A DNA stretch of 64,000 bases from an uncultured virus (IMG/VR IMGVR_UViG_3300037418_000344) (Duplodnaviria; Heunggongvirae; Uroviricota; Caudoviricetes), in IMG/VR virus record IMGVR_UViG_3300037418_000344. One strand, 5' to 3'. Position numbers and translations under genes: made by a program. Every line of letters starts with the position of its first letter. Positions within the stretch are counted from its first letter, which is position 1. Of this stretch, positions 21,405-64,000 are shown piece after piece. Below the pieces are notes generated by a model, which worked only from the letters and a program-made list of their open reading frames with translations, made no database searches and was not told the DNA's origin.

Positions 21405-21719
21405 GTGAAAAAGTCCGTAATTGTCCGCACAGAAAAACATTACGAAATCGACATCGCTGATAGCGTTCTTACTCAAGAATTCATCAACGAGTTTGAATCG
21501 TATATGTTTGCGCTTGATGGCGACACTTTAGAGGAAAAGCAGAACAATCTGTTTGAGTTTGCTGCACGTCAGCTTGCTCAAGGTGAGGAATATTTCATCG
21601 AAGGGCTTGGTAAGATTGCTAGTGTGAACACTGTAAAGTTCAAGCAAGATCGAGGTGATAAGATCGATGTTGTGTGGAAAGAGACTTATGACGGTGTTGA
21701 GACGGAGGTGGTAGGGTGA
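21405..21719 (+). CDS. hypothetical protein
   Basis: GTG start overlapping the previous stop; AAGGAG RBS. Confidence 0.6.
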   Translation: MKKSVIVRTEKHYEIDIADSVLTQEFINEFESYMFALDGDTLEEKQNNLFEFAARQLAQGEEYFIEGLGKIASVNTVKFKQDRGDKIDVVWKETYDGVETEVVG

Positions 21720-22270
21720 CTGCGAAATACCACGACTACATTCGGTATGCCGTTGATCGTGGTTGTTGGTTCGACTTTGACACAGGGGAATTTGTAAGTC
21801 ACACTGGCCTTAGAAAAATACCAAAGCTTTATGGAAAGCAGAGGTATCCTTCTACAGCTATTATGAGAAAACAGCATTTTCCAATCCACAAATTTGTTGC
21901 GTATTTGTTATACGGAGAGATTTCTTTTGCCGCTGATGTGGAGGTTCGGCATTTAGATGGCAATACTCTCAACTTAAGCAAAGAAAATATTGTTTTAGGT
22001 ACATCCGCAGATAATCAGATGGATAAAAGTTCAGATGCACGTTCAGCGGCAGCAAGGAAAGCACGCGCAGCACAGTCTCGCCCAACAAACTCTGTGTTGA
22101 CAGAGGATCAAGTTAAAGAAATAAAACTTTGGTACAAACTGCTAAAACAGAAGTACCCCAAGAAATTACCAAACGGTAGTTTGAAGAATAAGGCAAAAGA
22201 TTTTGGAGTTACCGTGCATTGCATTGGTGGCATTGTTAATGAAATTATTTGGAAAGATGTAAATGTTTAA
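21716..22270 (+). CDS. HNH homing endonuclease
   Basis: HKFVA...VRHLDGNTLNLSKENIVLGTSADN, plus C-terminal HTH-like part. Confidence 0.8.
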   Translation: MTAKYHDYIRYAVDRGCWFDFDTGEFVSHTGLRKIPKLYGKQRYPSTAIMRKQHFPIHKFVAYLLYGEISFAADVEVRHLDGNTLNLSKENIVLGTSADNQMDKSSDARSAAARKARAAQSRPTNSVLTEDQVKEIKLWYKLLKQKYPKKLPNGSLKNKAKDFGVTVHCIGGIVNEIIWKDVNV

Positions 22271-27124: not shown

Positions 27125-27316
27125 ATGAGCTTTGATTACCAGAATAGCACTCTTGAAGAACTTGCAGAATACATTGAAACTGCAACACCTCAAGTAATTT
27201 CAACCATGATTCGTTATTATGCCAACAAAGGTAATACTGAGATGGAAAATAAGATTCGTGGGGCTCGCAAGATTGTTGTCAAAAAGCGTGCTCTGGCCCG
27301 TTTGGAGGCAATGTGA
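27125..27316 (+). CDS. small 'SFDYQ' protein, partner of the endonuclease
   Basis: Paralogue of 9906-10112; stop overlaps the next start (GTGA). Confidence 0.75.
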   Translation: MSFDYQNSTLEELAEYIETATPQVISTMIRYYANKGNTEMENKIRGARKIVVKKRALARLEAM

Positions 27317-28539
27317 CAGCGAAATATATTCCGGGATATGTTAAAAACGGATTGACAATTGTTGAGAGGGTAGAGCATGACGGTAGAAAATATTTCCGAG
27401 TAAAGTGCGACAAGTGTGCATCGGATAGCGAGATGTATGGGGATGGGACGTTCTTGCAAGCAACCAACTCATTTTCTAGAGGGAATGTTCCTTGCGGTTG
27501 TAGTGCAAACTACGAGATGTCTAAAGAGCAGTACGAAACTCTTCTGCGCAGGAAATATGTGGGGCTAGATCACGAGTTTGTTGGAATTTTTGCGGAGTGG
27601 AATCGTTCATTGACGAAAGCAGAAATGTTCTGTAAAATTCATAACAAGACGTGGGAAAGTACATATGTTAGCAAACTGTTGGGAAAAGAGTGCGGCTGTC
27701 CGTACTGCAAAGCAGAAAACTCTAGGGTTAGGGCCACTAAAGAGAGCGAAGAATTAATCAGAAAGTTCTTTAATACTGGTGTGTACCACCCTGACACCAA
27801 ATTCCTTAGAGGTACACGTACTCACTCTTGGTATTACTTATGCCCTGTTTGTAAGAATGATGAGTTTGCAAGCGCAGGTCTATGCGATGGGATTTTTCAG
27901 AGTACAACTGCAAAGCTTGGGCAAGGATTATTGGCATGTAGGTGTTCTCATATTTATAAGTGGCCTATTGCTTTAAGGGAGTATCAAGTAGTAACTGCAT
28001 TGCTAGGAAGCAAATATACATTCAAGGGTTGGGCCGAGGGGTACGTCGGCAGTAAGTCGAAAGTATCTATACAGTGTCTTGAACACGGAACCTTCGATAT
28101 TGGATTACAGAGTTTTTTGAACGGTAGTCGATGTGCAAGCTGCGTACAGGGAGGGTATAAGCGACTAAGTGACGTGGGGTATGTCTACGCACTGAAAATT
28201 GAAGGGTTTGCGGACTCGTTTGTTGGTTTTGGGGTCACAAACAATTTTGACAGAAGACTAAAGCAACACACTGCACAGTTAGGGAAGCATGGATATCACG
28301 TTGATATGTCTTACGTCCTAAAGACGACTGGGGCAATTGCATTCGACTTGGAGAAGGAAATCAAATCTAACTTCCCGTTGAAAAGGGTTGGTGTAAAGGG
28401 TTTTGTAAGTGAGGCAATGCCATCTTCACAGTATTTAAAACTTATAGATTTTATAAAGGAAAGCGGGTACATATATGAAGGCACAATTAGTTCAGCGCAA
28501 CATAGCAGTATTGTCACAGGTTCTAACGGGCCTGTATGA
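27313..28539 (+). CDS. zinc-finger + GIY-YIG-like putative homing endonuclease
   Basis: Duplicated Cys/His modules then YVYALKI...FVGFGVTNNFDRRL..H; homologous to 10109-10930. Confidence 0.7.
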   Translation: MTAKYIPGYVKNGLTIVERVEHDGRKYFRVKCDKCASDSEMYGDGTFLQATNSFSRGNVPCGCSANYEMSKEQYETLLRRKYVGLDHEFVGIFAEWNRSLTKAEMFCKIHNKTWESTYVSKLLGKECGCPYCKAENSRVRATKESEELIRKFFNTGVYHPDTKFLRGTRTHSWYYLCPVCKNDEFASAGLCDGIFQSTTAKLGQGLLACRCSHIYKWPIALREYQVVTALLGSKYTFKGWAEGYVGSKSKVSIQCLEHGTFDIGLQSFLNGSRCASCVQGGYKRLSDVGYVYALKIEGFADSFVGFGVTNNFDRRLKQHTAQLGKHGYHVDMSYVLKTTGAIAFDLEKEIKSNFPLKRVGVKGFVSEAMPSSQYLKLIDFIKESGYIYEGTISSAQHSSIVTGSNGPV

Positions 28540-31500: not shown

Positions 31501-32337
31501 ATGGAAGAAATCTGGAAAGATGTGTACCATGAAGGTGTGTATGTTGGTAAGAAGATTAGCAGTCTTGGTAGATTGATGGGGGATAACGGCCTCATTTATG
31601 CGCAAGCAGATAATGGCGCAGGCTATAAATTTTACAACATTCTCCACTTTAGAAATGAAGAAGGTAAGAGTCGATCCGTTCGCAGGTATGTACACCGCTT
31701 GGTTGCAGAGTACTTTATCGACAACCCTGATAGTTTACCTCAAGTAAACCATACCGACGGTGATAAAAGCAATAACCGGGTTGACAACTTAGAGTGGACT
31801 AGTGGTAGCCAAAACATTCGGCTGGCACACAAAGCTGGACAAATGCGAAACAGGACTGATGCTGGAGATGTTGATATTCTGACAGTCGAACAAGTGATTG
31901 ACCTGTACACTGCCATTAAGAGGGATAAGGTTGGTATCTCTGCAAAAGCAAGAGAATTAGGCATTCCAAGGACAACAGCCAGCAGTATTGTCAACAAGCG
32001 CAGTCGCAGTTATATAACTGATGCTATTGATGACTATCTGCTAACGGATAATGTTGTGTATGATAGAAATCTTACGCGAGAAGATTTAGGCTTTGGGGCC
32101 AACCAAAATTTGTACAGAATTCATGAGAAACCTCGTTCAGACAGCAGTTCTGGTATTATCGGAGTTTACACCTACATTGCAGAAGACAAATACCCAATGT
32201 GGTATTGCGTTTGGCCGCTTGGCAATGGTAAAATGGGCAGCAAGCATTTTAGCGTAGGTAAATTCGGAGATGAAGGTGCAAAGCAAAAAGCCATTTCATA
32301 CCGAGAAGAGATGATGAAGCAAGTATCACAACACTAA
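31501..32337 (+). CDS. HNH homing endonuclease (NUMOD4-like, HNH, HTH, AP2-like)
   Basis: EEIWKDV..ISSLGR; VHRLVA..VNHTDGDKSNNRVDNLEW; SGIIGV..KHFSVGKFG..A..YR. Confidence 0.85.
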   Translation: MEEIWKDVYHEGVYVGKKISSLGRLMGDNGLIYAQADNGAGYKFYNILHFRNEEGKSRSVRRYVHRLVAEYFIDNPDSLPQVNHTDGDKSNNRVDNLEWTSGSQNIRLAHKAGQMRNRTDAGDVDILTVEQVIDLYTAIKRDKVGISAKARELGIPRTTASSIVNKRSRSYITDAIDDYLLTDNVVYDRNLTREDLGFGANQNLYRIHEKPRSDSSSGIIGVYTYIAEDKYPMWYCVWPLGNGKMGSKHFSVGKFGDEGAKQKAISYREEMMKQVSQH

Positions 32338-37849: not shown

Positions 37850-38231
37850 ACAAGAAAATCACTATCGTAACGAACGAAGACGATTGGGAGGGTTTGTACG
37901 TTGACGGGCTGCTTGCTGTGCAAGGGGATAGGCTTCGTGTGCAAGATGTTTTGGCGGCTGTTGGGATTTTTCCAGACACGCTTGTTTGTGACTACGATTG
38001 GTTGTCAGATCAAGGATACTTACCTGTTAGCTTAGATGAGGTGGTGCAAGATGATTGAGCAAAAATCTTTCCCGGTGCGATACATGGCAATTCACACGTG
38101 GTATGGTTGGAAGGTGATCGATACACGGTCATCAAGACAGCGAGTTGTGCGCAGATTTTTAGGTGGCTTTAGTGGCCTTAAGATTCTTGACGTGTACAAC
38201 TATGTCCGCAACAAGAACGAAGCGGAGGGAT

Positions 38232-38798
38232 ATGTCTACAGACCGTAAACCTTGGCTGTGCGAAGGAAGCCCGTGGAAGACTGAGGCGGCATTCATGAAC
38301 TGGATTCGTGGTGTACTTCGCAAAGGGTGGAAAGTTCATCCCATAAAAATTGAATTTATCAATAGGTTTCGTAAGCGCATTAAGAACCCTAACGTTAAGA
38401 GCGCTAAGCGTTTTCCTGAATGTTGGGGGATGACTTGCGATATCTGTAAGGTGGATACTGTACAAGCAGACATTCAAATCGATCATCGTGGAGACTCGGG
38501 CACCTTTACAAAATTCTCCGATGCAGAAGAATATATGAAGCACCTGTTCCTGATTGACTATGATTCAATTCGTCCGCTTTGTACTGCGTGTCACTCTGTC
38601 GTCAGCCACGCTCAAAACACAAGTATGACATTTGAACAAGCTAAGATTGACAAGCAAGTCATCGCCCTCATGAAAGACAAGAAAAAAGTTCTTGATATCA
38701 CTAATCAATGCGGGTATAATTGTAAAAATGATGTGCAGAGGCGAGAAGCTTTAACGGAGATTCTTACAGCACATCCCAATATTCTTGAGGAGAAATGA
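38232..38798 (+). CDS. HNH-type endonuclease, possible resolvase
   Basis: CDIC...IQIDH...LCTACH. Confidence 0.7.
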   Translation: MSTDRKPWLCEGSPWKTEAAFMNWIRGVLRKGWKVHPIKIEFINRFRKRIKNPNVKSAKRFPECWGMTCDICKVDTVQADIQIDHRGDSGTFTKFSDAEEYMKHLFLIDYDSIRPLCTACHSVVSHAQNTSMTFEQAKIDKQVIALMKDKKKVLDITNQCGYNCKNDVQRREALTEILTAHPNILEEK

Positions 38799-45631: not shown

Positions 45632-45814
45632 ATGAACATTGTTAAACAAATTGCCGACCGTGTAAACGCCATCCTGCGTACGGGCGCATCGAAAGAGAAA
45701 GCTGCTCGTTACATCAATGCCGAGTTCCACGCTTGTGCGTATGTTGGTAAAGGTAAGCTGTGGGCTTCGTTCACTGGCGAAGATGGCAAACAGCGTGTGC
45801 AGGTTTTTGCGTAA
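45632..45814 (+). CDS. hypothetical protein
   Basis: AAGGAG RBS after the promoter. Confidence 0.65.
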   Translation: MNIVKQIADRVNAILRTGASKEKAARYINAEFHACAYVGKGKLWASFTGEDGKQRVQVFA

Positions 45815-45821
45815 GGCGAAA

Positions 45822-46421
45822 ATGGCTGTCCCTGACTACAAAGGTTTAGATGGAAGGTGGGTAAGGTCTACAGGTCGAGGTAAAAATCAAATCTATACCA
45901 GAGCAGGCAACATTTGGCGCTGCGTACAGACGCGATGTAAACTTGATGGGCAGTACCAAAAAGATCGCGACACATACAAAGGTGTCCGAAATGAATTTAT
46001 AGATTTCCAACACTTCGCAGAGTGGTGTCAAAAACAGATTGGTTACTCTTCAGATGAAGTTTGGCAAATTGACAAAGACCTGCTATACAAGAATTGCAAA
46101 GTGTACTCGGAAGGCACCTGTTTGTTTCTACCTATACAGATTAATAATTTTTTAATCCAAGCGAACATGCGGAGGGGTAAACTGCCAATTGGTGTAAAAA
46201 TGGAAAAGAAGGTTACTGCACGGTATAAGGCACAATGTGCACCTTCTGGAACAGATTTTAAAAATTATATAGGCAATTTCGACACCCCGGAAGAAGCCTT
46301 CTACGCTTACAAGACCCGCAAAGAGTGTATCGCAAAAATTTTGGCGGAAAGATGGAAGGACAAGATTGACCCACGGGCATATGAAGCCCTACAAAATTTT
46401 ACCGTAAATATTAACGACTAA
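45822..46421 (+). CDS. HNH-like/AP2 homing endonuclease
   Basis: FQHFAEW..IDKDLL...YSEGTCLFLP..IN; YIGNFDTPEEAFYAY. Confidence 0.8.
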   Translation: MAVPDYKGLDGRWVRSTGRGKNQIYTRAGNIWRCVQTRCKLDGQYQKDRDTYKGVRNEFIDFQHFAEWCQKQIGYSSDEVWQIDKDLLYKNCKVYSEGTCLFLPIQINNFLIQANMRRGKLPIGVKMEKKVTARYKAQCAPSGTDFKNYIGNFDTPEEAFYAYKTRKECIAKILAERWKDKIDPRAYEALQNFTVNIND

Positions 46422-48664: not shown

Positions 48665-49174
48665 TTAATCTCTCTCTACAAAGGTGAGTGTGTAGCCCTT
48701 AGAAAGAGCTTTTTGTACTACAGCAGCAGGCGTTGCGATCGACCCTAAATCCAGAGAAGACAACCTGCGCATAGAAATGGTAAGCTCGCTGCACTGCCAG
48801 CGACGATCTTGTGCAATGTCTAACATGTGAAAAAATCCTTCGACTGCTTGGACCTTACTGTAATTGTCACCAACATGGGACATCCCGTAAGCCTCTTCTT
48901 CTTTACTCATTGGTTTGTCTGTAGTGGCAATGTGATAGAAGCCGTGATCTAAATACTTCGTAAGTGGACTTACAGATACTTTAGGCACCACTGCCTCTAT
49001 CACATGAGGCTCGCCACTCTTATCCTTCCAAACAACCGCAACATGGCTGTATTCGGACTCTGTTGCCATTCTCACAATCTGACTTTCTACGTCAGCAATA
49101 GTATCCCACTCTTGGTGGCTAACCGCTACAATGTCACCACTTTGACAGACATCTTTAAATTCAGAGTACTTCAT
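48665..49174 (-). CDS. permuted papain-like (YiiX/NlpC-P60) amidase
   Basis: GDIV...YSHVAV...VIEA...QCSEL...TP. Confidence 0.8.
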   Translation of the reverse strand: MKYSEFKDVCQSGDIVAVSHQEWDTIADVESQIVRMATESEYSHVAVVWKDKSGEPHVIEAVVPKVSVSPLTKYLDHGFYHIATTDKPMSKEEEAYGMSHVGDNYSKVQAVEGFFHMLDIAQDRRWQCSELTISMRRLSSLDLGSIATPAAVVQKALSKGYTLTFVERD

Positions 49175-50073: not shown

Positions 50074-50586
50074 TTACATCGTTTCGATAACAGTTTTATC
50101 CGTGTTGACAATGAAAGTGCGATAAGACTCCCAAGTATCATCAGGGATAAGATTAGCCTTCACAAGATTCGCTTTGTAAAGCTTAGACAGCGTGAGTGCA
50201 TCTTGGATTACAAGAGGGAAATCAGGATGACTCGCAAGAGCCGCATCATTCCAAGCTTTCGCTGCATCATCTTCTGAGCAAGCGGGATTTGCTTTAATGA
50301 AGTCTATTGCCGCACTCTTAGCAGCAAATCTCTCCGATTCCACCAACTGTGTGATGACAGATTTAGGACCATAGTCTGCTGTGATCCCCGGTCCAGCCCC
50401 AGCTTCCAATGCAATCAATTCATCTTGAGCAGATGCCAAAGAGATTTGAGCATCACTGTTGACACTGTTTAATCGCTGCACCAAAGATGCGGTAGCATTC
50501 ATAGAGCCTTGCAGCCCAGCGATTTTCTGCCTAAGCTCTTGGCGGCGCGCTTCATTCGCCAACGCTGTTTGTACATCAGTAACCAT
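50074..50586 (-). CDS. hypothetical protein downstream of the tail fibre (chaperone candidate)
   Basis: AAGGA RBS; N-terminal coiled coil. Confidence 0.65.
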   Translation of the reverse strand: MVTDVQTALANEARRQELRQKIAGLQGSMNATASLVQRLNSVNSDAQISLASAQDELIALEAGAGPGITADYGPKSVITQLVESERFAAKSAAIDFIKANPACSEDDAAKAWNDAALASHPDFPLVIQDALTLSKLYKANLVKANLIPDDTWESYRTFIVNTDKTVIETM

Positions 50587-50596
50587 AATAATTCCT

Positions 50597-53500
50597 TTAG
50601 AAAGATGCTTTAGTGTTGTGGCAAAGCAGTCCACCGGCAAAATACGTACCCGCGCCTTCAACACGGAAGCTCACCACTTGACCTTCTCCAACAGCTAGTA
50701 CAGACTCAACAATGCTTTCTTGCAAGCCCATGATTTGATCTCCAGCACGAAGATTTTGCACTGTTACCCAGCCACGATCAACCACAGCAAAACGATGGTT
50801 TTCACTCCATTCCGTCGCAGCACCGTTAGTAAGCTTGACACGATAACGCTGTGCCCAAATTGTCGTCAAGTCTCTGACAGTTCCTCCTTGCGGAAGTGGT
50901 TGCATATTGTTGTCGTTAACAGCAGCAAGCTTAGCACCGTTGTGAAGATCGCTGGCATTCACTTCTTTACCGCTCAGCAGTTTTACTTTAACCCAAGGAG
51001 CAGGGCAGGCACCCCCGGATGCGCCAGAGCCACCACCAGAGGAACCTGCTACGCCTGTGATGGTAGTGTGGCCAAGGGAGGTTCCAGCAGACACCCCCCT
51101 GTCAAAATCTTGAGTAGCTGACCAACCATATGTGTTCGCAATCCGAACGCGAAGATACCCGTTATAGACACGCGGGTTTGTGGAAGTAATCAGAGCAGCA
51201 TTTGGATTTACACCTCCGGCATACTTCCATCCCCAGTGCCAGCTACCTTTTACAATGCCTGATGCGGCGTCATATGTCCTAGATGGGCACGGTTGATAAA
51301 ATTCTGTGAAAGGTGCAGTATCGGTCAGTGAGGTAAAGAATTGAACATGAATCTGCTGAACTGCGTCAAGATTGTCGGTGTTTGTGGAGTATGTGGTAGG
51401 CGTCAGTGTATAAGTGTGATACGCCAACTGGAAAAATTCACTCGCACTGTAATCGGAGATTGGCACCGACAAAGTAGGAACTACTGTCAAACATGCAATA
51501 TTCGGTGCACCCCCTCTAGTCGTCGCATCATTGTTACCACGCCAGATAATCCTATTCGATGTGACACTGCCATCAATACCCTGCACAAGACGGAACCAAT
51601 AGTCATTAAGGACAAGCGTGCCGATCTGGAAAGAATTCTTCTCCACCTTTAAAGCTGTTCCAGTGGACGCCAACTTAGCACCCGCAGTAGGATTACCCGA
51701 GCCATCTTCCGCGTAGTTGGTTGTGCGCAGGTCCGATATATGAACGGAATTGATGGCTCCTGTGCCGATCAATGTTGACGAGTTACTGCTCGTTATCTGA
51801 CCACCGACGTTCTGACCCAGCACAGGCCCGCCGAAATAAGCTTCCAACGACGGCTCGGAACCATCAACAAGGTTGACCATCGGCCGACCGAACACCTGCT
51901 GCGCCCCGTTGGAGGCATAGTACTGGTAGGCCCGGTGGGTGTGAGAAGTGATCCCAACCTTGAAGTTGTAGTTGGTCCCGGAAGCTACTTTCTGACGGGT
52001 CATGCAGTCCCAGACACCAGCATTATCGTTCGTGTTGCCAGTGGAGCCCGCAGGGTAGATATACCCGACGAACAGATACCACCGGTCCGTCGTGGAAATA
52101 GACATGTTGGCGAAATACGGGTTACTCACAGCCGTCGTCGTATTCAAGGTGCAAGTCGTACCCTCGTTGATGCCCCAATAGGCCGTGGCCGAGCCGGACA
52201 GCTTGCGAATCGGGATCACAAAGCGATAGGTCTTGGTCGGGTCAAGCACCAAGGGCGCTAAGTTCCATCCCCCACCACTGCCGCCATTGTTAGCAGTTTC
52301 TGTTGCCAGCCACACAGCCTCGTTAACCCCCTTCGGACCGAGGACACCAATATCCCCCATAGCGTCCACAATTGCGTTGGTTTCGTCGTTCAGGGTCCAT
52401 GGAATGGTCGCTCCTTTGGCCCACCACGACAGGTCGGTCAGGTTGTTCTTGATCTGGTCGTCAGCGGGTCGATTTCCGATGTTGGCCCAGTTGTTGGAGG
52501 ACAGCGGTCCGAAACGTATATTCTTCAGGGTGGCATTCGACGAGTTGAGGGAGCTGTCGAAGAACAGAGTCTGGTTCGGGACCGAGGCGTTGGCGGAAGT
52601 GGACGTGTAGACCACAACCCCATTTTTCAGGTATTTGACCGAAGACCCGTCATACACAACTGCGAACACGTCGCCAGCGGCATAGGCTCCCAAGCTAGGA
52701 GCTTTGTTCACTCCGCTCTCGTAGACGGCAAGGGTGCCAGCAGCCAGGTATATCGCGTAGTCGATGCTGGCGTAGCTGCTGTCAGATGTGGGGTCGCTGT
52801 TCAAGCCGAACATCAGGCTGGTGCTGGCCTCCCCCGCCACAGCAGAAGCATATGCGCCACCAGTGAAGCTGTCGACCGAGTACACGTCGGCGTTACTCCA
52901 ACCATCGGCAACATTCTTGGCAGCGCTGTTACCTGTCACCGTAACCCCCCGACCAATCAGCACGAGGTCGGACGAAGCGTTGTCCGCAGGTCTCCCTGTG
53001 CCGGACACACCAATCCAAGTTGAAGTTGTCGATGCAATCGAAATATCCGCTGAAGTGTCTTCTGGAGCAGGCGTCCACGCCGTACCTTTATTACCCTCTT
53101 CAATTTGAATGGCATCTACGGCCATCCAAGCATACGTTGTGCAATGAAAACCGAACCTAGGCTCTATGGTTGTTACACCAGAAGGACAAGTCCAAACCAA
53201 AGAGGCTTTTGTCCAACTGTCTTGATTCCCAAATACAACACCGAAGTCCGCACCACCTATATGGGTTCCGTTTGACAATCTCCAAAAGGTACTTGTATTT
53301 GTAATCCCGCCCGCAGATTTGTAATAGAAACTAAGTGTGTATGCTTTTCCCGGTGTAACTTGAGCTAGCGGGCCACCCAAGTAAAGATATGCATCCACTT
53401 CAGCACCCCCTGTAGGGTCGCTATCAAAAAACAAAAACTTACTTCCTACGTAGGGTGATGTAGCTCCTGTATCGATTACTCCGCCTGTTTGAGTGGCGCT

Positions 53501-55597
53501 GCTAACACTTCCAGATGTTTCCGAGCAAGGGTGTTGTCCACGCTCAAATCCAGAGTCTTGTAGCAAGTTCCTTCCGCCCACAACAATATCGGCATTAAGT
53601 GTACCGGGTGCAGCGTTAGCAGGATTCAACTGTGTGCCTGCTGCCAACAATATCGATCCATCCGGATTATATATAGTGGCAGATTTCATAGTGACACCAC
53701 CCGAAGCATCCACTACAAAATTACCATTTGCAGAACTAATTGTCCCACTTACAGTCAAGTTGCCCGTATTTTCTGAAACAGAGTTAAGGCTTCCTACTTT
53801 CAATGAAGACCAATATGGAATCGACCACGTCACTTTGTTCGTAATGGGGTCATAAATACCGTCAGATTGATACAGGTATTGCCCAGAAGTTAGCGATGGT
53901 ACTGTGCTGCTCCACGTCCCAGTAATACCTCCATCGTTCGTAGCAGGTAAACTTGTATTGCCAGTTGTCTGTGCAGGAGTTGTGGTAGTTGTGGCTGTAG
54001 CAGACGCACAGTAAGCTGTAACGTACGATGCGCCCTGTTGCCCTGTATTGCCATTGCTACCGGCATATCCTACAGATGAAACAGATGCAGATGTCCAATT
54101 GAAACTTGTTTGTGTTGCTGTAGCTGAGTCTACGAGATAGACCTTTGCCTCCCAAAGAGTCATCCCCGGAGTAGGAGACACCCCCGCCGAGGAAGACCAA
54201 CCAGAAGGGAAAGAACTTACTGCCCTGTTGCTCCATGTATAAGTTGCTGTACCAGAAGGGCTTGCTGGGATGCTTGCTGCCCATTGATAGACTGCTGTAG
54301 ATGCACTCTGTACACCGCTATCGCCTTGAGGGCCAGTTGCACCGTTCTTTGTCCACGCTTGAACAGTGGCGCTTGAATAGCTCACAGAGCTTGATGTCGT
54401 TCCAGATGCAGCCACAATCTGTGCAATAGCCACAAACAGGCTAAGATTGGCAGTACCCGGATTCGTAGGCACAGTGGTGCTCCATCCATCACCTGTCACG
54501 TATCCCGTGTTAGCACCAGTTGACCAGTTATAATTGGATGTGCCTGTTGGGTTCGCGGGAACAGTTGCCGCCCATTGGTACAAATAAGCCGTTGCATACT
54601 GATTAGCTGGCGTGCCTGCTGTACCCGTCTTAGACTTAGCAAGAGTCACTGTGAGCGGAATCGTAACTCCGTTATAAACTGCTTGCAGAACAGCGCTCGC
54701 TGTATCTGCTGCCATTACTGTGATGCTGTAGACACCAGAGGTATTAATAGTGATCGTACAATTGTTTTGTGAGGCGACAGAGTAAGTTACGCTTGCACCA
54801 GTCTTATCCGTAATACCATCATACACTTTGAACGTACCTGTAGCAGATGCGTAGCTTCCTACCGTACCATCAGTTGCTGCGGCAAGTGTGATGGATTGAT
54901 TGGTCAAGAATCCGCTCACGGAGTTTGTACCGCCTGTCACTTGCACAATCGTCATTTCATCTACATAGACGCTGCCATCAATCGTCGCCTGCACACGATA
55001 ATTACGCGACGATGTAAAGTCACCAGATGCAACCTCATATGTTGCAGATGTTGCCCCGCTAATATTTGTCCAAGCAGAACCATCCCAGTATTGCCACTGG
55101 AATGATGTCGCGTTATTACCGTACGGTGTTGCATTCAGCACAATAGATGTGGGAGTGAATGCAGATGTTGCAGTTGGGCGGCTAAACACTTGTCCACCAA
55201 ACGTGGAGATTTCAACCCAAGCAGCAGACGAGCCAGCTTGGCCCGCAGAGCCGTCTACAACTTTAGTAAGAGTTGTGCTAGCATTGTACGTAGAACCATT
55301 TCGTGTTACACTTGCAGTAATAACAGCGCTGCTCCCCGACATGCCGTTGTACGCTATAGTGGCAGTGTTATCTCCATTATCTGTAATAGTTGCACCAGCG
55401 GCGGTGAACGAAGCTGTACCAATAATGTTGAGGAGGTGGGCGGTAACAGTAATGTAGGAGGGAGTGGTTGTCCCAGTTGCACTTACGTGGAATGTAGGAG
55501 AATCACTCGTAATTAGAATTGTTGCATCTTGAGAATTTACGTCTCGTTGAGTTATCCCCAACAAAAGTACATCCCTATCATTCATTACTGTTGCCAT
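50597..55597 (-). CDS. tail fibre / host-specificity protein with C-terminal Hint domain
   Basis: 1666 aa, Ser/Thr/Gly-rich; YQWAA..P..P.GT..Y.W repeats, collagen-like linkers, GGRNLL.DSGFE carbohydrate-binding-like module. Confidence 0.85.
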   Translation of the reverse strand: MATVMNDRDVLLLGITQRDVNSQDATILITSDSPTFHVSATGTTTPSYITVTAHLLNIIGTASFTAAGATITDNGDNTATIAYNGMSGSSAVITASVTRNGSTYNASTTLTKVVDGSAGQAGSSAAWVEISTFGGQVFSRPTATSAFTPTSIVLNATPYGNNATSFQWQYWDGSAWTNISGATSATYEVASGDFTSSRNYRVQATIDGSVYVDEMTIVQVTGGTNSVSGFLTNQSITLAAATDGTVGSYASATGTFKVYDGITDKTGASVTYSVASQNNCTITINTSGVYSITVMAADTASAVLQAVYNGVTIPLTVTLAKSKTGTAGTPANQYATAYLYQWAATVPANPTGTSNYNWSTGANTGYVTGDGWSTTVPTNPGTANLSLFVAIAQIVAASGTTSSSVSYSSATVQAWTKNGATGPQGDSGVQSASTAVYQWAASIPASPSGTATYTWSNRAVSSFPSGWSSSAGVSPTPGMTLWEAKVYLVDSATATQTSFNWTSASVSSVGYAGSNGNTGQQGASYVTAYCASATATTTTTPAQTTGNTSLPATNDGGITGTWSSTVPSLTSGQYLYQSDGIYDPITNKVTWSIPYWSSLKVGSLNSVSENTGNLTVSGTISSANGNFVVDASGGVTMKSATIYNPDGSILLAAGTQLNPANAAPGTLNADIVVGGRNLLQDSGFERGQHPCSETSGSVSSATQTGGVIDTGATSPYVGSKFLFFDSDPTGGAEVDAYLYLGGPLAQVTPGKAYTLSFYYKSAGGITNTSTFWRLSNGTHIGGADFGVVFGNQDSWTKASLVWTCPSGVTTIEPRFGFHCTTYAWMAVDAIQIEEGNKGTAWTPAPEDTSADISIASTTSTWIGVSGTGRPADNASSDLVLIGRGVTVTGNSAAKNVADGWSNADVYSVDSFTGGAYASAVAGEASTSLMFGLNSDPTSDSSYASIDYAIYLAAGTLAVYESGVNKAPSLGAYAAGDVFAVVYDGSSVKYLKNGVVVYTSTSANASVPNQTLFFDSSLNSSNATLKNIRFGPLSSNNWANIGNRPADDQIKNNLTDLSWWAKGATIPWTLNDETNAIVDAMGDIGVLGPKGVNEAVWLATETANNGGSGGGWNLAPLVLDPTKTYRFVIPIRKLSGSATAYWGINEGTTCTLNTTTAVSNPYFANMSISTTDRWYLFVGYIYPAGSTGNTNDNAGVWDCMTRQKVASGTNYNFKVGITSHTHRAYQYYASNGAQQVFGRPMVNLVDGSEPSLEAYFGGPVLGQNVGGQITSSNSSTLIGTGAINSVHISDLRTTNYAEDGSGNPTAGAKLASTGTALKVEKNSFQIGTLVLNDYWFRLVQGIDGSVTSNRIIWRGNNDATTRGGAPNIACLTVVPTLSVPISDYSASEFFQLAYHTYTLTPTTYSTNTDNLDAVQQIHVQFFTSLTDTAPFTEFYQPCPSRTYDAASGIVKGSWHWGWKYAGGVNPNAALITSTNPRVYNGYLRVRIANTYGWSATQDFDRGVSAGTSLGHTTITGVAGSSGGGSGASGGACPAPWVKVKLLSGKEVNASDLHNGAKLAAVNDNNMQPLPQGGTVRDLTTIWAQRYRVKLTNGAATEWSENHRFAVVDRGWVTVQNLRAGDQIMGLQESIVESVLAVGEGQVVSFRVEGAGTYFAGGLLCHNTKASF
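50615..51007 (-). other. Hint (intein-like) domain, 131 aa
   Basis: Starts C-PAPW; block B SENH; W...NL..GD.I; V.SF.VEG..TYFAGGLLCHN followed by T. Confidence 0.8.
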
Positions 55598-63254: not shown

Positions 63255-64000
63255 TTATGCTGCTTGTGCAGCTTGGTTGTTAGAGCTATATTGCTCTTTG
63301 GATTGTTGTGAAATTAGTTGTTCGATACGGTTTAGGAGGGATGCTAGGTTTACGTCGTAGAAGCATTCTCGCCATCCGTCAAACGGCATTAAAGGTTGAA
63401 TGTATTGAGATTTTAACTCTTGTAATATTAGAGTTTCGGTTTTACGCGCTCGCCAACCTTCGACAAAACTGTATGTCTTTAATACTTTCAAATCTTTACC
63501 TGAATATCTTGCGACTGTTTTGCAGCGCTTCTCCGGGTTGTTATTTGTAATTCCAATTTTCGTCATATCCCCGTCTGTAAGAACATATAGAAAACCTTTT
63601 TGTGAGCCTTTGAATCCAGATACCGAACAATACGGACAACCTCGTCCTGAAAGATGAGAACCGGGCGCCTGCCAAAAACTTTCGTGCTCTGGACAAATTA
63701 TCTCAACCTTTACTTCAGAATTTTTGTACACGACCTTGTGGTATTGATACCTATTACCATGCACATCATTGGCATCTTGGATAAAATTCTCCAAGGTTTT
63801 TCTACATCTATCACCTTGTTCCTTGAGGTTACACTTCGGGCAACCTGCACGATTGGCGGTATGGTTGTGGAATGACTGAGAAAACCACCCATGCTCATAG
63901 CAAAAGATATCAATTTTAGAATTCTTGTTCGTGTAACCAAGAGGTTCTTTGTACACGTACCTGTCACCATGCGCTTGCCTGATTTCTTCCCGTGCAACGT
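63255..64000 (-). CDS. zinc-finger repeat + GIY-YIG-like homing endonuclease (5' end outside the window)
   Basis: Repeats HG.RY.Y...I.C.EH..F.Q....H....GCP.C then FLYVL...TKIGIT; frame is open to the window edge. Confidence 0.8.
   Translation of the reverse strand, partial: VAREEIRQAHGDRYVYKEPLGYTNKNSKIDIFCYEHGWFSQSFHNHTANRAGCPKCNLKEQGDRCRKTLENFIQDANDVHGNRYQYHKVVYKNSEVKVEIICPEHESFWQAPGSHLSGRGCPYCSVSGFKGSQKGFLYVLTDGDMTKIGITNNNPEKRCKTVARYSGKDLKVLKTYSFVEGWRARKTETLILQELKSQYIQPLMPFDGWRECFYDVNLASLLNRIEQLISQQSKEQYSSNNQAAQAA

What the first reader, a model, noticed from the sequence alone, without database searches (positions are those of the whole stretch)
50597..51060. Tail fibre ends in a complete Hint domain with a 5-residue C-extein
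Seen: after a GSSGGGSGASGGA linker comes a 131-aa domain from Cys (CPAPW) through SENH to ...LLCHN, then only TKASF and stop. Established: C1, block-B His, terminal His-Asn and a +1 Thr are the residues used by inteins and bacterial intein-like domains. Many fibres instead use a C-terminal S74 autocleaving chaperone. Inference: the fibre self-processes by cleaving off the Hint, splicing on TKASF, or using the thioester to attach the fibre end to another molecule, as Hedgehog does with cholesterol. The downstream 170-aa protein or a host surface group are candidate acceptors. With no endonuclease and a terminal position, this looks domesticated rather than selfish.
Basis: partly seen in the sequence, partly recalled or inferred. 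Interest (0 to 1): 0.75.

Follow-up and report, generated by a model that had tools for sequence, protein, structure and literature searches.

The report
Self-excising Hint cap on phage fibre

Summary
Observation confirmed. The 1666-aa tail protein (50597-55597, minus) ends in a Gly linker, a 131-aa Hint domain (C1, block-B His, His-Asn) and TKASF. The fold is Hint (Foldseek E 1e-10; VIA Z 18.9) and under purifying selection (dN/dS median 0.05, 20 close pairs). Thr+1 is not conserved (S/T/C in 31 of 117 terminal Hints), whereas Lys+2 is (111 of 117; 1 of 24 in a bacterial PT-HINT control). Block-F Asp and a sterol region are missing, so canonical splicing and Hedgehog-like transfer are unlikely. 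The Hint travels with a swapped, hypervariable FNIII-like tip (61 of 62), not with the 170-aa neighbour, whose relatives follow Hint-less fibres in 10 of 40 loci. The same cap ends lambda-gpI-like proteins. Best reading: a domesticated type-A-BIL-like cap that excises itself, the tail lysine resolving the thioester as an isopeptide; plain cleavage is the main rival. No chemistry is shown. I found no paper (10 searches) and no cultured phage with it. This scan noted the same module before on other DNA (7 notes).

The parts
50597..55597 (-). 1666-aa tail fibre / receptor-binding protein (inferred), mosaic: GC3 about 0.35-0.45 except 0.67-0.73 over roughly aa 900-1300
   Evidence: shared segments with relatives; carriers of the same end module annotated as fibres
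51515..51772 (-). Conserved shaft joint (about aa 1276-1361) upstream of the tip; also found on fibres that end in other tips without Hint
   Evidence: alignment A5; 7 of 69 proteins share only this part; low-confidence part of the model
51092..51514 (-). FNIII/Ig-like beta-sandwich (aa 1362-1502), hypervariable and swapped between close relatives; likely receptor-binding domain
   Evidence: VIA Z up to 7.9 to FNIII domains, middling; DNA identity to L001 47-73% here against 99-100% upstream and 89-100% in the Hint; no Pfam, PDB-sequence or Atlas name
51008..51046 (-). Gly/Ser-rich linker GSSGGGSGASGGA; Gly at -2 in 96 of 107 and at -3 in 94 of 107 terminal Hints, -1 variable
50615..51007 (-). 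131-aa Hint domain: C1 (51005-51007), block-B His71 (50795-50797), His130-Asn131; block F4 = Ser113 and block-F His position = Gly120
50597..50614 (-). C-terminal tail TKASF and stop; Lys+2 (50609-50611) is the conserved residue, Thr+1 is not
50074..50586 (-). 170-aa all-helical protein (60-residue N-terminal helix, Gly loop, helical bundle); fibre-associated gene that usually follows this cassette but also follows Hint-less fibres

Best explanation
The Hint is a domesticated, type-A-BIL-like autoprocessing cap on the receptor-binding end of the fibre. Shown: fold, intact catalytic residues, purifying selection, tight coupling to a hypervariable FNIII-like tip, and a tail lysine fixed two residues after His-Asn. 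Inferred from intein chemistry: C1 forms a thioester with the Gly-rich linker (N-S shift helped by His71) and Asn131 cyclises to release the tail. Inferred from conservation: the epsilon-amine of Lys+2 takes the place of the Cys/Ser/Thr+1 nucleophile and attacks the thioester in cis, so the Hint (14.2 kDa) is lost irreversibly and the mature fibre ends in linker-isopeptide-Lys of the 5-residue tail. Purpose (weakest step): a transient cap or folding aid for the tip that must be gone from the finished fibre, the role S74 chaperones play by other chemistry; the constant Hint gene also gives a fixed downstream arm for tip swapping.
For: Hint fold. C1 and His71 in 107 of 107 full-length terminal Hints at median 38% pairwise identity. 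dN/dS median 0.054, max 0.17 in 20 close pairs. Lys+2 in 111 of 117 terminal Hints, Arg in 1; lysine background 2.5%; 59 of 64 after thinning; exactly one Lys per tail in 111 of 117, anchored to His-Asn and not to the stop, tails 2-14 aa; both AAA and AAG codons used. Control: Lys+2 in 1 of 24 bacterial PT-HINT domains, and all 5 control domains with tails of 18 aa or less have Lys at +1/+2 against 1 of 19 with long exteins. Retention of His-Asn implies selected C-terminal chemistry, which plain N-terminal release would not need (established intein chemistry, PMC4031507 passages). Precedent for Hint-made isopeptides: Tetrahymena BIL2 (PMC8616854 section 2.4), joint top structural match. 61 of 62 FNIII-tip proteins found without the Hint in the query end in a Hint.
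Against: No biochemical or proteomic data. Block-F Asp is absent (2 of 107) and block-F His is Gly in this subclade (His 32 of 107), which could slow or uncouple both steps. His-Asn invariance is partly built into my filter (161 of 165 proteins counted), and three relatives have Ser-Asn without the penultimate His (L054, L079, P0257). Six of 117 terminal Hints lack Lys+2 (5 of them have Lys at +1 or +3, 1 has none). Type A BILs give mostly cleavage products. The Lys could be an acid/base helper or structural; I had no model coordinates to measure its distance to C1. The control is small, from one phylum, and its short-tailed members are not independent (L179/L181 are relatives, L172 may be a broken gene). 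Why a 5-residue branched end should matter is unexplained.
Confidence: 0.45

Rival explanations
1. Plain double autocleavage: the thioester is hydrolysed or thiolysed and Asn cyclisation frees the tail; Lys+2 only assists (general base, positioning). The fibre ends in a free ...GGA.
For: Type A BILs mostly give cleavage products (PMC4031507; PMC7664689). No +1 nucleophile family-wide. Same net loss of the cap.
Against: Arg almost never replaces the Lys (1 of 117); conserved His-Asn plus a conserved amine would be superfluous if only release were needed.
Confidence: 0.25
2. Type-A BIL ligation: after Asn cyclisation the free alpha-amine of residue +1 attacks the thioester, giving a linear ...GGA-TKASF whose free Lys is then used for something else (cross-link, binding). 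In this copy Thr+1 could also splice canonically.
For: Mechanism described for type A BILs; any +1 residue is tolerated; Thr+1 is present here and in 29 of 117.
Against: Low-yield route in known BILs; close relatives at 74-77% identity have Leu, Phe or Tyr at +1, so hydroxyl chemistry is not required.
Confidence: 0.12
3. Trans-acylation: the thioester persists and attaches the fibre end to an outside nucleophile (the 170-aa protein, another virion protein or a host surface group).
For: Gly-Gly before C1 recalls ubiquitin-like acyl donors; BIL2 conjugates to other proteins; the 170-aa gene follows FNIII-Hint fibres in 32 of 36 loci with room, across unrelated phages.
Against: 170-aa relatives follow Hint-less fibres in 10 of 40 loci, at 88-93% identity to those following Hint fibres; 4 tip-Hint and 17 non-tip terminal Hints have no such neighbour; no sterol-recognition region and no block-F Asp; a thioester is unlikely to last in a free virion (inference).
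Confidence: 0.1
4. The Hint stays on as a structural or binding domain, or is a harmless terminal hitch-hiker that merely removes itself.
For: Loss of block-F Asp/His; nearest cultured-phage matches are terminase mini-inteins at about 30% identity; the module recurs on unrelated proteins.
Against: Catalytic residues are the most conserved columns; a stop in the linker would delete a passenger at no cost, yet 61 of 62 keep it with dN/dS about 0.05; no endonuclease.
Confidence: 0.08

Closest known systems
Type-A bacterial intein-like (BIL) domains, e.g. Clostridium thermocellum BIL (PDB 2LWY); definitions seen in reviews PMC4031507, PMC7664689, PMC7765530 (passages); the primary papers of Amitai 2003, Dassa 2004 and Aranko 2013 were not read
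   Same: Minimal Hint fold (Z 18.6, rmsd 1.8), C1, His-B, terminal His-Asn, no obligate +1 nucleophile, seated next to a hypervariable region of a non-conserved protein.
   Different: Phage tail proteins; strictly terminal with a 2-14 aa tail; near-invariant Lys+2 and Gly-Gly at -3/-2; distinct CPAPW-type start; below Pfam cut-offs; forms its own branch apart from 12 bacterial PT-HINT controls (100/96 support, few columns).
BIL2 of the Tetrahymena thermophila BUBL1 locus (PDB 6TMM, 6Y75)
   Same: Hint domain reported to form a Lys epsilon-amine isopeptide (PMC8616854 section 2.4); joint best structural match (Z 18.9, 15% identity); Gly-rich donor end.
   Different: BIL2 sits between two ubiquitin-like domains and uses a Lys of a folded partner; here the donor is an FNIII-like tip plus linker and the Lys lies in a 5-residue tail.
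Class 1 mini-inteins (Ssp/Npu DnaB; terminase intein of Corynebacterium phage Cruella)
   Same: Fold, size, C1 and His-Asn; this copy has Thr+1; Cruella element is 31% identical and ends His-Asn-Thr.
   Different: No conserved +1 nucleophile, no block-F Asp, not inside a conserved enzyme site, no intein-free alleles of the same tip.
Peptidase S74 intramolecular chaperones of tail fibres and spikes (described in PMC12403621 passages)
   Same: C-terminal position on a fibre; presumed self-removal that uncovers the binding end.
   Different: Unrelated fold and chemistry (Ser-Lys dyad, trimerising helical domain); no S74 hit here. Analogy only.
Hedgehog Hog domain (PDB 1AT0)
   Same: Hint fold (Z 17.1), C-terminal position, thioester at C1.
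   Different: No sterol-recognition region (only 5 residues follow), no block-F Asp, and a terminal His-Asn is kept.

Membership tests
Hint superfamily | Horseshoe all-beta Hint fold | tested here: met
Hint superfamily | N-terminal Cys/Ser and block-B His | tested here: met
   C1, His71; 107 of 107
Class 1 intein | Conserved Cys/Ser/Thr at +1 | tested here: not met
   Thr in this copy, but S/T/C in 31 of 117 and 9 of 64 thinned
Class 1 intein | Block-F Asp and His (usual, not universal; PMC7765530) | tested here: not met
   Ser113 and Gly120 here; Asp 2 of 107, His 32 of 107
Class 1 intein | Insertion in a conserved host site with intein-free alleles | tested here: not met
   61 of 62 FNIII tips carry it; the one exception ends in the Gly linker in another frame
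Type-A BIL | C-terminal His-Asn | tested here: met
Type-A BIL | No obligate +1 nucleophile | tested here: met
Type-A BIL | Placed in hypervariable regions of non-conserved proteins | tested here: met
Type-A BIL | Match to the published type-A sequence motifs / curated models | tested here: inconclusive
   PT-HINT 13.9 bits against cut-off 27.7; family profile hits 2LWY at 2.1e-9; original motif set not available
Type-A BIL | N- and C-terminal cleavage with minor ligation in vitro | not testable with these tools
   needs expression
BUBL / BIL2 | Hint flanked by ubiquitin-like domains | tested here: not met
   FNIII-like domain and linker before, 5 aa after
BUBL / BIL2 | Lys epsilon-amine isopeptide product | not testable with these tools
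   suggested by Lys+2 conservation only
Hedgehog Hog | Sterol-recognition region after the Hint | tested here: not met
Peptidase S74 chaperone | S74 fold with Ser-Lys dyad | tested here: not met
   domain folds as Hint; no S74 hit
Peptidase S74 chaperone | Drives trimerisation and folding of the upstream fibre | not tested

The most novel reading that the evidence does not exclude
A widespread, undescribed class of protein-splicing element that uses a lysine side chain in its own short tail as the splicing nucleophile, installed as a removable cap on phage receptor-binding tips and tail-assembly proteins (and, independently, on some bacterial surface proteins), leaving virion proteins with a branched isopeptide C-terminus or, under the right trigger, acylating an outside amine.
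Probability: 0.4. Interest if true: 0.85.

Novelty: new variant of a known kind. Interest (0 to 1): 0.64.

Why it matters
If the lysine is the nucleophile, this is a natural cis-splicing route beyond the Cys/Ser/Thr classes, with BIL2 as the only precedent I found, and a compact self-contained isopeptide ligase for protein engineering. For phage biology it adds a second kind of self-removing fibre cap beside S74, marks a family of swappable FNIII-like receptor-binding tips, and predicts a virion modification that standard proteomics would miss. It also gives type-A BILs, whose biological role is open, a clean and testable setting: prophages of named culturable myxobacteria carry two such caps in one tail module.

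Tried and rejected
Cultured phages: tblastn of the Hint, of the 410-aa end, of a myxobacterial Hint and of a jumbo-phage-type Hint against 50,697 phage records gave only terminase inteins or weak hits; three hits inspected are terminase-type inteins or an internal Hint, none a fibre cap. Literature: 10 searches and passages of 12 papers found no description of Hint domains at fibre C-termini; subscription journals are mostly missing and no supplements were read. Automatic UniProt labels do show Hint and FNIII names on uncultured phage proteins, so the domain is not invisible to annotation. 170-aa protein: no Pfam/NCBIfam/PHROG family, no Foldseek match at E<=0.001, Atlas blank; rejected as dedicated acceptor. 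FNIII tip: no PDB sequence hit, Atlas blank. Lys codon as a by-product of the next gene's ribosome site: rejected, it is anchored to His-Asn and uses both codons. All-pairs dN/dS (median 0.64, 221 pairs) looked weak but 201 of these are distant pairs (median pN 0.48, 154 with GC3 above 0.75) where dS is not measurable. Ring cross-linking of fibre subunits through the tail Lys: rejected by reasoning, since each tail leaves its own chain when Asn cyclises or when its N-part is transferred. No whole genome is held for the window; the nearest virus record has no Pfam intein match.

Full report
Observation. The finding lies at the end of a 1666-aa ORF, 50597-55597 on the minus strand. From C1531 to N1661 there are 131 residues, with a Gly/Ser linker before and TKASF-stop after; the next gene encodes 170 aa. 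The window is a phage segment with replication genes, ribonucleotide reductase, tape measure, a tail-like 492-aa gene, a C92 peptidase and an endolysin. The large protein has no tail-family hit of its own, so 'fibre' rests on position and on relatives.

It is a Hint domain. Curated models give only sub-threshold hits (Intein_splicing E 2.2e-4, PT-HINT E 0.066). An AlphaFold2 model of residues 1257-1666 from a 79-sequence alignment (mean pLDDT 82.8, 93-98 over the Hint) matches inteins and BILs: Ssp DnaB at E 1.2e-10; Npu DnaB and Tetrahymena BIL2 at Z 18.9, 2LWY 18.6, Hedgehog 17.1. The domain before the linker (aa 1362-1502) resembles fibronectin type III sandwiches at Z up to 7.9, which the tool calls middling.

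Family. Searches returned 33 proteins and 350 representatives, of which the best 150 were listed; together 165 proteins. In 161 a Hint reached the end of my profile; they hold 117 terminal domains (tail 15 aa or less) and 74 internal ones. In the terminal set +1 takes 15 different residues (Thr 29, Ala 20, Leu 16, Ile 10; S/T/C 31 of 117), whereas +2 is Lys in 111 of 117 and Arg in 1, against 2.5% Lys in the carriers. Thinned to 64 sequences under 60% identity, Lys+2 is 59 and S/T/C+1 is 9. Tails hold exactly one Lys in 111 of 117, at a fixed distance from His-Asn and a variable one from the stop, with both codons. Gly stands at -2 in 96 and at -3 in 94 of 107. C1, His71, His130 and Asn131 are 107 of 107, the last two partly by my filter; three later relatives have Ser-Asn. 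Block-F4 is Ser here (Asp in 2 of 107) and the block-F His position is Gly (His in 32 of 107); these residues normally assist transesterification and Asn cyclisation (PMC7765530 passages).

Control. A PT-HINT search of 151 genomes of one bacterial phylum plus five handle genomes gave 36 loci. My script called 28 block-G ends; I dropped 4 false calls by eye (L164, L166, two in L190), and 10 rows had no block G. Of 24 left, Lys+2 occurs in 1 and Lys+1 in 5. All 5 with tails of 18 aa or less have Lys at +1/+2, against 1 of 19 with long exteins (Fisher p 1.4e-4; 2.6e-3 after removing a probable pseudogene and one of two relatives). One of them (L195) has a Gly run, a terminal Hint and Lys+2 yet groups with the bacterial PT-HINTs, not the phage clade (129 columns, long branches, and the L176 row was cut at the wrong His-Asn). 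So the lysine goes with terminal position. The control is small.

Selection and mosaicism. Hint dN/dS is 0.04-0.06 for the window against six close relatives and 0.15 for a seventh; over 20 close pairs the median is 0.054, maximum 0.17. The all-pairs median of 0.64 comes from 201 distant, mostly GC3-saturated pairs. Against L001 the DNA is 99-100% identical up to about aa 1330, 47-73% over the FNIII-like domain, 89-100% in the Hint and 100% in the 170-aa gene; five more relatives show the same dip. This is the pattern of a swapped receptor-binding domain between constant flanks (inference).

What the Hint travels with. A search with the tip alignment alone, no Hint in the query, gave 69 proteins: 62 have the FNIII-like domain and 61 of these end in a Hint; the exception runs into another frame in the Gly linker; 7 share only the shaft joint and end in other tips. 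The 170-aa gene follows tip-Hint fibres in 32 of 36 distinct cases with room (2 more had no room), in unrelated siphoviral, podoviral-like and prophage settings. But its relatives follow Hint-less fibres in 10 of 40 loci (several near-duplicates): one phage group keeps an 88-93% identical 153-aa version and a 45-66% identical shaft while the end is FNIII-Hint in some and a different tip in others. It is all-helical with no fold match. It is best read as a general fibre-associated protein, not a dedicated acceptor. The same Hint-x-Lys cap also ends lambda gpI-like tail assembly proteins (PF06805, phrog_32) in myxobacterial prophages, which thus carry two caps in one tail module, forming separate branches.

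Mechanism. Shown: fold, residues, selection, linkage. Inferred from established intein chemistry: N-S shift at C1 and Asn cyclisation. Inferred from conservation: Lys+2 as the amine that resolves the thioester in cis, giving a fibre ending in an isopeptide-linked 5-residue tail and a free 14.2-kDa Hint (masses). I put this at 0.45; plain cleavage with an assisting Lys 0.25; alpha-amine or Thr ligation 0.12; transfer to an outside acceptor 0.10; uncleaved or passenger 0.08. Type A BILs lack the +1 nucleophile, mostly cleave, and can ligate through the freed amine (PMC4031507 and PMC7664689 passages). BIL2 is reported to form a Lys isopeptide (PMC8616854 section 2.4 read whole; PMC9200820 passages). 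The purpose, a transient cap or folding aid like S74 chaperones (PMC12403621 passages), is analogy only.

Novelty. No cultured phage among 50,697 records carries the module; the nearest are terminase mini-inteins. Ten literature searches found no description. Term searches inside PMC3556154, PMC5259590, PMC3482391, PMC7824862, PMC12220804 and bioRxiv 10.64898/2026.05.12.724579 (passages only) showed Hints only in terminases, reductases and polymorphic toxins, or none. The primary BIL and BIL2 papers were seen only as citations, subscription journals are largely absent and no supplements were read, so a prior mention cannot be excluded; automatic UniProt labels already put Hint and FNIII names on uncultured phage proteins. 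Seven earlier notes of this scan describe the same kind of cap on other DNA; they are unchecked AI notes, and my lysine reading was recorded before opening them.

Verdict. Real, conserved and apparently undescribed; a new variant of type-A-BIL-like Hint domains rather than an intein, a Hog domain or an S74 chaperone. Interest 0.64; 0.85 if the lysine isopeptide route is confirmed.

Noticed in passing
L075:5383-6450, L076:1163-2482, L077:1433-2491, L078:1417-2493, L090:95-1210: Lambda gpI-like tail assembly proteins ending in the same Gly linker-Hint-x-Lys cap; L076-L078 carry a second cap on the tip fibre two genes downstream.
   Followed up: partly
P0071, P0098, P0123, P0136, P0156: Proteins with tandem Hint domains joined by His-Asn-Lys-Gly(1-4)-Cys spacers, so each junction has both the Lys and the Gly-Gly feature; P0071 also has a Tim44-like domain.
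   Followed up: no
L176, L179, L181, L195: Bacterial Cys-rich or Pro-rich, probably surface-exposed proteins ending in a PT-HINT-type domain with a short Lys-bearing tail.
   Followed up: partly
window about 51700-52900 (fibre aa 900-1300): GC3 jumps to 0.67-0.73 against about 0.4 elsewhere in the gene; relatives lack or rearrange these segments, pointing to a recently imported module.
   Followed up: partly
window 48665-49174 (-): YiiX/YaeF-type permuted papain-like C92 peptidase between the tail module and the lysis genes; kept in close relatives.
   Followed up: no
L044/L045, L050, L051, L087; L140-L160: The 170-aa family occurs as 104-121-aa forms with only the N-terminal helix part and as 153-aa forms with a different N-terminal helix.
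   Followed up: partly
window 21716-22270, 27313-28539, 31501-32337, 38163-38798, 45717-46421, 63255-63956: At least six free-standing HNH or T5orf172-type endonuclease genes, while polymerase, primase-helicase and ribonucleotide reductase show no Hint match.
   Followed up: no
P0248: Near-copy of the L050/L085 fibre tip whose frame changes inside the Gly linker so that no Hint follows; assembly error or real slippage not resolved.
   Followed up: no
L066, L069, L071, L072: About 564-aa proteins of large viral contigs (up to 335 kb), unrelated to the fibre, also ending in Gly linker-Hint-x-Lys.
   Followed up: no
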